A stretch of DNA of 47,983 bases from Candidatus Hermodarchaeum yapensis. GTDB lineage: Archaea > Asgardarchaeota > Hermodarchaeia > Hermodarchaeales > Hermodarchaeaceae. Below the pieces are notes generated by a model, which did no database searches, was not told the DNA's origin, and saw only the letters and a list, made by a program, of their open reading frames with translations. Every line of letters starts with the position of its first letter. Positions within the stretch are counted from its first letter, which is position 1. This document shows positions 9,220-9,753 of this stretch, piece by piece. A program made the translations under genes and the position numbers. The DNA lies in contig JAEOSK010000020.1 in NCBI GenBank assembly GCA_016840405.1, forward strand, positions 1-47,983, in the 5' to 3' direction.

Positions 9220-9298
9220 TGACGTCGCATCCACGAAGTCTTAATCCTGACTTGGCTAGTGGTATCTCCCTAAGCTTCATCGCCTTATTAGCCTTTAT

Positions 9299-9519
9299 CT
9301 AAAACCACCAGAAAACCCCATTCCTTAAGGACGGATATGAATTGTGGAGTTTAAATTTCCCATTGAGAACTTCACTACGAGGTCCTAGTTTTAGTGACCG
9401 AGAACTAAGGTCAATGACCGGGCAACATCGTCGGAACGGCGAGCAGAGCCTGTTGACTAGTCGGCATTGGTCGATGGCATGAAGCAGGAAACTCCGCCTT
9501 TTAGGCTGGAGTAGTTCAC
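9299..9519 (+). mobile_element. Non-autonomous IS200/IS605-family mini-element (PATE/MITE-like) carrying a TnpB omegaRNA-like scaffold
   Basis: TTTAT (9294-9298) precedes a left end AAAACCCCATTCCTTAAGGACGG; right end ATGAAGCAGGAAACTCCGCCTTTTAGGCTGGAGTAGTTCAC has a subterminal hairpin and TCAC terminus; no ORF inside. Confidence 0.75.
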
Positions 9520-9537
9520 GTCAAATTAGGAACGATT

Positions 9538-9753
9538 TTATTTGTTCCCAAGATAGAAAATCAAACCCAAAACAAAGAACACACCGACAAACATGACGAC
9601 AAGCACTGTAAGTTCAATATCTAAAAACAAAACAGCTACTGGTGTGCCAATCAAAAGGTAGGGAAAGACAAGAATCGTAATAATCAGTGCCAAAAAGACT
9701 AGTCCAATCATCCATCCACGTTGCCGGCGACTAAACATCGAATACTCCACCAA
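9538..9753 (-). CDS. Small two-TM membrane protein
   Basis: Two hydrophobic helices in 71 aa. Confidence 0.65.
   Translation of the reverse strand: MVEYSMFSRRQRGWMIGLVFLALIITILVFPYLLIGTPVAVLFLDIELTVLVVMFVGVFFVLGLIFYLGNK

What the first reader, a model, noticed from the sequence alone, without database searches (positions are those of the whole stretch)
9294..9540. Protein-less IS200/IS605 mini-element that looks like an orphan TnpB omegaRNA (guide RNA) cassette
Seen: 221 non-coding bp with a left palindrome (TCCTTAAGGA), an internal hairpin (CCTAGTTTT...AGAACTAAGG), the segment CGTCGGAACGGCG...GCCTGT...ATGAAGCAGGAA, a hairpin ACTCC-GCCT/AGGC-T-GGAGT and terminal AGTTCAC. Known: these features typify tnpB 3' ends and right ends that encode the omega/reRNA scaffold, with the guide taken from flanking DNA. 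The left guide tetramer AAAA (9312-9315) predicts a TTNT cleavage site under TnpA pairing rules, and TTTAT lies at 9294-9298. Inference: a non-autonomous element supplying a guide RNA in trans (guide ~GTCAAATTAGGAACGATTTT, TAM TTTAT) to a TnpB encoded elsewhere. The right guide tetramer GAAA fits TCAC imperfectly, so mobility may be lost.
Basis: partly seen in the sequence, partly recalled or inferred. Interest (0 to 1): 0.8.

Follow-up and report, generated by a model that had tools for sequence, protein, structure and literature searches.

The report
Gene-less transposon carrying a TnpB guide RNA
A 221-bp protein-less IS200/IS605-type mini-transposon in an Asgard archaeon keeps only its two ends, a TATA-box promoter and the scaffold of a TnpB guide RNA. 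It is a well-supported new example of the already described "standalone omegaRNA" elements.

Summary

- **Element and insertion:** Window 9299-9519 is a 221-bp non-coding element inserted just after TTTAT. A congeneric genome has the exact empty site, with no target duplication.
- **Copies:** The host MAG is an Asgard archaeon of the Hermodarchaeota lineage. It holds 23 copies of the same right-end module: 15 gene-less minis and 8 attached to tnpB genes, two of which (C59, C67) read open over full length.
- **RNA structure:** The last ~140 nt form a multi-helix RNA with strong covariation (94.5% of cells paired, 18 of 26 pairs with changes on both sides). A covariance model built from it hits the 3' ends of annotated tnpB genes in Methanohalobium and in a Calditerrivibrio tnpA+tnpB IS605.
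- **Promoter:** The minis conserve a TTTAAATA-type archaeal TATA box. A spacer of fixed length (21-22 nt) but free sequence follows it, up to the conserved scaffold start. In full-length copies the tnpB ATG sits at that same distance.

Most likely function: a self-promoted omegaRNA whose guide is the right flank. A TnpB encoded elsewhere would use it in trans to re-cut the excised donor site.

Expression and TnpB use were not shown, and no Y1 TnpA was found in this 86%-complete genome. Standalone omegaRNAs and PATEs that encode omegaRNAs are already published, so this is a new member of a known kind.

The parts
9294..9298 (+). Target / transposon-adjacent motif (TAM) TTTAT. It is flank DNA, not part of the element.
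   Evidence: Present in the empty site of G005 directly before the right flank. A TTAT-ending motif precedes about 17 of 23 minis and most tnpB-linked copies; the intact C59 copy has TTGAT.
9299..9519 (+). The whole 221-bp protein-less IS200/IS605-family mini-element (PATE/MITE-like).
   Evidence: Exactly this stretch is absent from G005:C275, whose flanks are 90% identical. Family alignments.
9299..9349 (+). Left end. It holds an imperfect hairpin at 9318-9334 and a conserved block just before the TATA box.
   Evidence: Colinear with the left ends of tnpB-bearing copies. A hairpin forms at the same place in about 18 of 22 minis with different stem letters, but it is weak in this copy (-2.9 kcal/mol, z -0.76), and RNAalifold gave no consensus.
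9350..9357 (+). Archaeal TATA-box-like motif (TTTAAATT here; family consensus TTTAAATA).
   Evidence: 78% mean pairwise identity across 23 minis, against 35% in the next 21 nt. The equivalent TTCAAATA lies 21-24 nt (mostly 21-22) before the tnpB ATG in the six full-length copies that have an ATG there. The host is an archaeon with TBP genes.
9358..9378 (+). Spacer of fixed length and free sequence between the TATA box and the predicted transcription start.
   Evidence: 21-22 nt in 22 of 23 minis, with only 35% identity.
9379..9519 (+). Predicted omegaRNA scaffold, 141 nt. Helices: 9382-9389 with 9417-9423; stem-loop 9428-9442; 9449-9453 with 9484-9488, enclosing hairpin 9457-9477; terminal (right-end) hairpin 9491-9512; invariant tail 9513-9519.
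   Evidence: RNAalifold and pair counts. Model R1 scores this copy at 105.8 bits. Single-sequence fold: -49.9 kcal/mol, z -2.37. Homologous to the 3' ends of tnpB genes.
9520..9539 (+). Predicted guide: the flank read through from the scaffold. It is identical to the sequence that would follow TTTAT in the vacated site.
   Evidence: Similarity among all copies ends at 9519. The empty site shows the TAM directly followed by this flank. No other TAM-flanked match exists in the genome. The transcript itself was not observed.
9536..9543 (+). T-rich run (TTTTATTT) 17-24 nt past the right end. It could act as an archaeal terminator.
   Evidence: Read directly from the sequence. It is flank DNA and is not conserved in other copies, so it is probably fortuitous.

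Best explanation
Window 9299-9519 is a non-autonomous IS200/IS605-family mini-element (PATE/MITE type) in a Hermodarchaeota-lineage Asgard archaeon. It consists of four parts:
- a left end with its hairpin;
- the element's own TATA-box promoter;
- a ~140-nt TnpB omegaRNA scaffold that starts where tnpB would start in the full-length element;
- the right end.

Proposed mechanism, inferred from published TnpB biology:
1. Transcription starts about 22 nt after the TATA box, near 9379.
2. It runs through the scaffold and about 16-20 nt into the right flank, giving an omegaRNA whose guide equals the flank.
3. A TnpB encoded elsewhere in the genome binds this RNA in trans. Candidates are the intact C59 or C67 copies, which are related to ISDra2 TnpB.
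4. If a Y1 TnpA excises the mini-element, the resealed donor site reads TTTAT followed by the guide target.
5. TnpB cuts that site, and recombination with a sister chromosome restores the element.

The mini-element is thus a hitch-hiker on both TnpA and TnpB.

Shown here: element boundaries, the insertion signature, family membership, homology to tnpB 3' ends, the conserved RNA structure, and the promoter-like architecture. Inferred only: transcription, TnpB binding, cleavage and homing.
For: 1. **Precise empty site.** A congener lacks exactly this stretch, with no target duplication and the insertion 3' of TTTAT.
2. **Copy family.** There are 23 copies of the right-end module in the genome: 15 orphan and 8 tnpB-linked. 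All end in the same 7 nt, and similarity stops there.
3. **tnpB link.** The intact linked gene has the three Pfam TnpB domains. It matches ISDra2 TnpB structures at E 1e-67, with the RuvC D/E/D and zinc-finger motifs present. Its stop codon ends 5 nt before the right end.
4. **Covariation.** In 31 sequences, 94.5% of cells pair and 18 of 26 pairs change on both sides. No shuffle of 500 reaches this, and shifted registers pair at 52% or less. Minis and tnpB-linked copies differ by compensatory stem swaps but share the unpaired motifs.
5. **Unequal conservation inside a non-coding element.** Mean pairwise identity is 89% in the core, 78% in the TATA box, 35% in the spacer and 24% in the flank. 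Spacer length is fixed at 21-22 nt. In tnpB-linked copies the tnpB ATG lies 21-22 nt (24 nt in one copy) after the corresponding TATA box.
6. **External validation of the model.** Model R1 hits the 3' end of annotated tnpB in Methanohalobium (57.8 bits, E 1e-13). It also hits a Calditerrivibrio tnpA+tnpB IS605 whose right end has the same terminus.
7. **Link to TnpA.** R1 hits lie about 1.2 kb from Y1 tnpA genes in other genomes of the phylum.
8. **Precedent.** Published work describes standalone omegaRNAs that function in trans (PMC10691335) and PATEs that encode omegaRNAs (PMC10055086).
Against: - No transcript was seen. The single metatranscriptome run is held only as contigs, and these cover 8481-8790, not the element.
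- No Y1 TnpA was found in this 86%-complete genome, and only 1 of 14 congeners has one.
- The minis' stems and their 5' domain differ from those of the tnpB-linked copies in this genome. Compatibility with the resident TnpB is therefore assumed, not shown.
- This copy departs from the family at several positions that are at least 90% conserved: 9406, 9454, and an A:C mismatch at 9387:9419. Its left-end hairpin is weak.
- The exact TTTAWATA 8-mer shows no positional peak upstream of host ORFs; only looser TATA-like hexamers are mildly enriched.
- Rfam has no matching family.
Confidence: 0.75

Rival explanations
1. A plain MITE/PATE. Only the two ends matter, for TnpA-mediated transposition. The omegaRNA-like interior is an inert leftover of a deleted tnpB and is neither transcribed nor used.
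For: No expression data. Copies are old and diverged, at 72-85% identity. This copy carries several changes at conserved positions. No TnpA is present in the genome.
Against: To my knowledge of IS608, TnpA does not need the interior. Yet the interior core is the best-conserved part: 89% identity, against 55% for the left end. Its stems keep pairing through double changes. A TATA-like box is held at a fixed distance while the spacer sequence drifts to 35% identity.
Confidence: 0.15
2. The conserved helices are single-stranded DNA signals for the transposase on the active strand, rather than an RNA.
For: IS200/IS605 transposition is strand-specific and uses DNA hairpins at both ends. The terminal hairpin 9491-9512 is at the expected place for the right-end hairpin.
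Against: Three further helices lie 30-140 nt inside the end, and to my knowledge they have no counterpart in the known TnpA recognition sites of IS608. The same architecture sits on the 3' ends of tnpB genes, where omegaRNAs are known to be made. A promoter-like box lies upstream at fixed spacing.
Confidence: 0.05
3. A domesticated guide or regulatory RNA serving the host. It could repress or act antisense to the neighbouring 71-codon ORF (9538-9753, minus strand), or target foreign DNA.
For: The read-through transcript would be antisense to the 3' end of that ORF. Orphan cassettes outnumber the open-reading tnpB genes (15 against 2).
Against: The site is empty in a congener, so the cassette is not a fixed part of the locus. 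The guides of all 23 copies match only their own flanks. Insertion sites are unrelated to each other.
Confidence: 0.05

Closest known systems
Standalone omegaRNAs of OMEGA systems, and PATEs that encode omegaRNAs (PMC10691335, which credits its reference 1 for the original finding; Meers et al. 2023, PMC10055086)
   Same: A mobilised, protein-less unit bounded by IS200/IS605-type ends. It carries the guide-RNA scaffold, sits in a genome that also holds effector-encoding copies, and is expected to act in trans.
   Different: The host is an Asgard archaeon. The cassette carries an archaeal TATA-type promoter at fixed spacing, so that transcription should begin at the first scaffold base. The mini lineage has its own 5' domain and compensatory stem variants compared with the resident tnpB-linked copies. 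Function was not tested here.
ISDra2 / IS1341-type TnpB elements (TnpB structures 8h1j, 8exa)
   Same: The linked TnpB aligns over its full length (E 1e-67) with the catalytic motifs present. The TAM is TTGAT or TTTAT. The omegaRNA overlaps the tnpB 3' end and the right end, and the guide is the 3' flank.
   Different: The window element has no tnpB at all. No direct comparison with the ISDra2 RNA sequence was made.
sotRNAs of IS1341-type tnpB genes in Halobacterium (PMC4615843)
   Same: Archaeal non-coding RNAs from the 3' end of tnpB, in the sense direction.
   Different: sotRNAs overlap a tnpB gene, whereas here the gene is gone and the left-end promoter sits directly on the scaffold. I saw only the abstract of that paper.

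Membership tests
IS200/IS605 family, non-autonomous derivative (PATE/MITE) | Insertion 3' of a short specific target, with no target-site duplication and no terminal inverted repeats | tested here: met
   The empty site in G005 reads TTTAT directly followed by the right flank. The ends are asymmetric.
IS200/IS605 family, non-autonomous derivative (PATE/MITE) | Subterminal imperfect hairpins at both ends | tested here: inconclusive
   The right-end hairpin is well supported: 88% of cells pair and 6 of 7 pairs change on both sides. A left-end hairpin is found at the same place in about 18 of 22 copies, with different stems.
IS200/IS605 family, non-autonomous derivative (PATE/MITE) | Mobilised by a Y1 (HUH) TnpA | tested here: inconclusive
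   No PF01797 match in the own genome, which is 86% complete. One of 14 congeners has a tnpA+tnpB IS605 with the TTTAT target and a similar terminus. Related scaffolds lie next to tnpA in other genomes of the phylum and in Calditerrivibrio.
IS200/IS605 family, non-autonomous derivative (PATE/MITE) | No protein-coding gene between the ends | tested here: met
   221 bp with no conserved ORF.
TnpB omegaRNA (reRNA) | Scaffold homologous to the 3' end of tnpB plus the right end | tested here: met
   Aligns with 8 tnpB-linked copies in the genome. Model R1 hits the 3' ends of annotated tnpB genes in two cultured organisms.
TnpB omegaRNA (reRNA) | Conserved secondary structure supported by covariation | tested here: met
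TnpB omegaRNA (reRNA) | Guide is the variable DNA immediately 3' of the right end; the target is preceded by the TAM | tested here: met
   Similarity ends at 9519 in every copy. The vacated site would join the TAM to the guide-matching flank. This is a test of sequence logic only.
TnpB omegaRNA (reRNA) | Transcribed and bound by TnpB | not testable with these tools
   The only RNA run is held as contigs and does not cover the element.
Rfam RNA families | Match at or above the gathering score | tested here: not met
   No match at gathering threshold. The best E-value match (1.7) is an unrelated sRNA lying on the terminal hairpin.

The most novel reading that the evidence does not exclude
The minis are not decaying leftovers. 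They would be an independently evolving lineage of promoter-equipped, omegaRNA-only transposons that parasitise TnpB (a hyperparasite of a selfish nuclease). They have their own added 5' RNA domain and re-paired stems, outnumber open-reading tnpB genes about 7 to 1 in an Asgard archaeon, and persist across species of the genus. This would give TnpB a distributed, mobile guide repertoire, reminiscent of a primitive dispersed CRISPR array.
Probability: 0.2. Interest if true: 0.55.

Novelty: new member of a known kind. Interest (0 to 1): 0.35.

Why it matters
This is a clean natural example of guide-RNA-only mobile cassettes in the archaeal lineage closest to eukaryotes. It is defined by an empty site, a covariation-backed RNA model and a promoter architecture.

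- It gives a ready-made minimal expression unit (TATA box, 21-nt spacer, scaffold) for testing Asgard TnpB systems.
- It offers a family in which trans use of omegaRNAs, competition between orphan and gene-linked guides, and TnpA-independent persistence can be studied.

It does not change the current picture of TnpB biology.

Tried and rejected
- **Rfam.** Neither the gathering nor the E-value search gave a relevant family.
- **Public reads.** The one metatranscriptome holding part of the stretch covers only 8481-8790. No contig joins across the element, so this gave no evidence on expression and no population-level empty allele.
- **20-mer scan of genome contigs.** True hits came only from two congeneric Asgard MAGs. 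The bacterial hits were chance matches without the scaffold.
- **Parent tnpB with the mini-type stems.** None was found in the own genome. All 8 linked copies carry the other stem set.
- **Guide off-targets.** There are none with a TAM in the genome. I did not search viral collections, because the guide is simply flank DNA.
- **Host promoter check.** The exact TTTAWATA motif shows no positional peak upstream of long ORFs. Looser TATA-like hexamers are mildly enriched at -70 to -40. This is weak support only.
Rejected as a family feature.
- **The aCas1-linked Asgard TnpB motif GTTCACTCA (PMC10691335).** It lies downstream of a hypervariable region, which is a different arrangement from the one here, where nothing is conserved beyond the end.

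Full report
**Observation**

No ORF of 60 aa or more lies inside.

The element sits between two minus-strand ORFs without Pfam matches, 8797-9234 and 9538-9753. A cupin gene lies to the left and an EamA/NIPA-like transporter gene to the right.

**Repetition and boundaries**

A search of the window's own assembly found 19 further similar places. The assembly is 2.7 Mb in 77 contigs, 86% complete and 44.7% GC. Every match ends at the position equivalent to 9519.

In an alignment of all copies, similarity stops abruptly after the shared 7-nt terminus. In the minis it starts just after a TTAT-ending motif.

The decisive test was the flank search in relatives. In congener G005 the flanks are 90% identical and abut directly. 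That site reads TTTAT followed at once by the window's right flank, so exactly 9299-9519 is missing, with no duplication.

Because IS200/IS605 excision is scarless, this empty site may be ancestral or the product of excision.

Contigs from independent estuary metagenomes cover both junctions with 0-1 differences.

**Host**

- The genome encodes TBP.
- G005 corresponds to a MAG named Promethearchaeota DZ2S.148.

The window therefore comes from an Asgard archaeon.

**Link to tnpB**

Six of the BLAST-detected copies, and two more found with the covariance model, lie at the 3' end of tnpB frames.

- The C59 copy is intact: 401 aa from its ATG, with the OrfB_IS605, Cas12f1-like TNB and HTH_OrfB_IS605 domains.
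- It aligns over its full length with ISDra2 TnpB structures at E 1e-67. The GVDVG, VESLN, DRDINAA and CxxC...CxxC motifs are present.
- The other seven linked copies vary. C67 reads open at 65% identity to C59, but its start codon was not identified. C40:33842 changes frame near residue 365, and C14:14852 is split into two fragments with the middle of the gene unmatched. The remaining four carry in-frame stops.
- The tnpB stop codon ends 5 nt before the right end. The last codons are still recognisable in the window's mini-element.

The own genome thus has 15 orphan and 8 gene-linked right-end modules.

**RNA structure**

RNAalifold on 20 own-genome copies gave three stem-loops and a long-range helix. 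Fifteen of the 26 pairs showed compensatory changes.

On 31 distinct sequences from three genomes:

| Measure | Result |
|---|---|
| Cells forming a standard pair | 94.5% |
| Pairs with changes on both sides | 18 of 26 |
| Shuffles reaching these values | 0 of 500 |
| Pairing in shifted registers | 27-52% |

Minis and gene-linked copies differ systematically in stem letters but share the unpaired motifs: the GGAAC loop, the purine-rich linker before the last hairpin, and the terminal 7 nt.

The minis have an extra 5' domain closed by a helix (9382-9389 with 9417-9423 in the window). Its covariation is modest, and the window copy has one A:C mismatch in it.

The window scaffold folded alone gives -49.9 kcal/mol, z -2.37.

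**Covariance model R1**

- It recovers all 23 own-genome copies at 67-115 bits; the window copy scores 105.8 bits.
- It finds matches in 20 of the 41 genomes searched (the window's own plus 40 from the phylum). Several lie about 1.2 kb from Y1 tnpA genes.
- It hits the 3' end of the annotated tnpB of Methanohalobium evestigatum pMETEV01 at 57.8 bits, E 1e-13.
- It hits, more weakly (19 bits, E 7e-4), a tnpA+tnpB IS605 on Calditerrivibrio pCALNI01. That right end has the same terminus, 5 nt after the tnpB stop.

Rfam itself has no matching family.

**Promoter architecture**

All minis share one layout:

| Segment | Mean pairwise identity |
|---|---|
| Left end | 55% |
| TTTAAATA-type box | 78% |
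| Spacer (21-22 nt in 22 of 23 copies) | 35% |
| Conserved scaffold start and 5' domain | 68% |
| Core | 89% |
| Terminal hairpin | 63% |
| Last 7 nt | 100% |
| Flanks | 24% |

In the gene-linked copies the same left end carries TTCAAATA, and the tnpB ATG follows 21-22 nt later in four copies and 24 nt later in one. That is the geometry of a leaderless archaeal mRNA; the expected distance from the TATA box to the start is established archaeal knowledge, not something tested here.

The mini-element therefore looks like the full element with tnpB replaced by the scaffold, so that the left-end promoter fires straight into the omegaRNA.

A crude host-wide check gave only mild enrichment of TATA-like hexamers at -70 to -40 of ORF starts, and no peak for the exact 8-mer.

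**Mechanism**

By analogy with the published homing model (PMC10055086), the RNA would carry the first 16-20 nt of the right flank (9520-9539) as its guide. After TnpA excision, the donor joint reads TAM plus that sequence. A TnpB supplied in trans would cut it and trigger copying-back.

While the element is in place, the guide target is preceded by TTCAC rather than the TAM, which should protect the occupied site.

The guides of all 23 copies match only their own loci.

Transcription, binding and cleavage remain untested. The only RNA run does not cover the element.

No Y1 TnpA was found in this incomplete genome. One congener has a tnpA+tnpB IS605 with a TTTAT target and a similar terminus.

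From my recollection of the IS608 rules (not tested here), AAAA before the left hairpin fits TTAT in the same way that AAAG fits TTAC.

On the right side, the tetramer before the hairpin is GAAA or GAAG across the family. The A variant is also in the intact C59 element. It therefore says nothing about loss of mobility in this copy.

**Comparison with the literature**

- PMC10055086 states that PATEs often encode omegaRNAs that must be used by TnpB encoded elsewhere.

The present element is a well-characterised new member of that kind in Asgard archaea, with a clear archaeal promoter design. It is not a new kind.

Other first-stage notes on this genome describe sister copies with the same reading. 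Three of those copies (on C9, C60 and C73) are in my alignments.

Noticed in passing
G000:C14:139159-140373 and 141129-142322 (loci L021, L022): Two tnpB pseudogene copies of the same family lie in tandem about 2 kb apart. Each has its own right-end module and in-frame stops.
   Followed up: partly
L088 (G013:C208:1-2307): A congener carries a canonical IS605 with divergent tnpA and tnpB. It sits after TTTAT and ends in ...GGTAGTTGAC, so its ends resemble this family's. Model R1 does not match it, so it uses a different scaffold.
   Followed up: partly
window 9384-9390 with 9403-9410: A C-to-T change at 9406, in an otherwise nearly invariant unpaired stretch, creates a hairpin specific to this copy. 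It competes with the family's 5' helix and may mark early decay of this copy.
   Followed up: partly
L117 2309-2408 (Methanohalobium pMETEV01): The minis' core resembles this methanogen's tnpB-linked scaffold more than it resembles the tnpB-linked copies of its own genome. The methanogen scaffold lies mostly beyond the tnpB stop. This hints that the minis descend from a different tnpB subfamily that is no longer present in this assembly.
   Followed up: no
G000:C73:8584-8669, next to a tnpB pseudogene at C73:7354-8526: A weak R1 match (26.7 bits) lies just downstream of a distant tnpB family (29% identity to C59). Other omegaRNA families evidently coexist in the genome. Earlier first-stage notes also mention an IS607-type orphan cassette.
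   Followed up: no
window 8388-8885 and 8797-9234 (minus strand): The two listed ORFs overlap by 89 nt, so the cupin gene's true start is probably further downstream. Metatranscriptome contigs cover 8481-8790.
   Followed up: no
tnpB 5' ends versus the minis' 5' domain: The first codons of tnpB share short words with the minis' invariant 5' stretch and core start. This could be a trace of the deletion that created the minis, or it could be chance.
   Followed up: no
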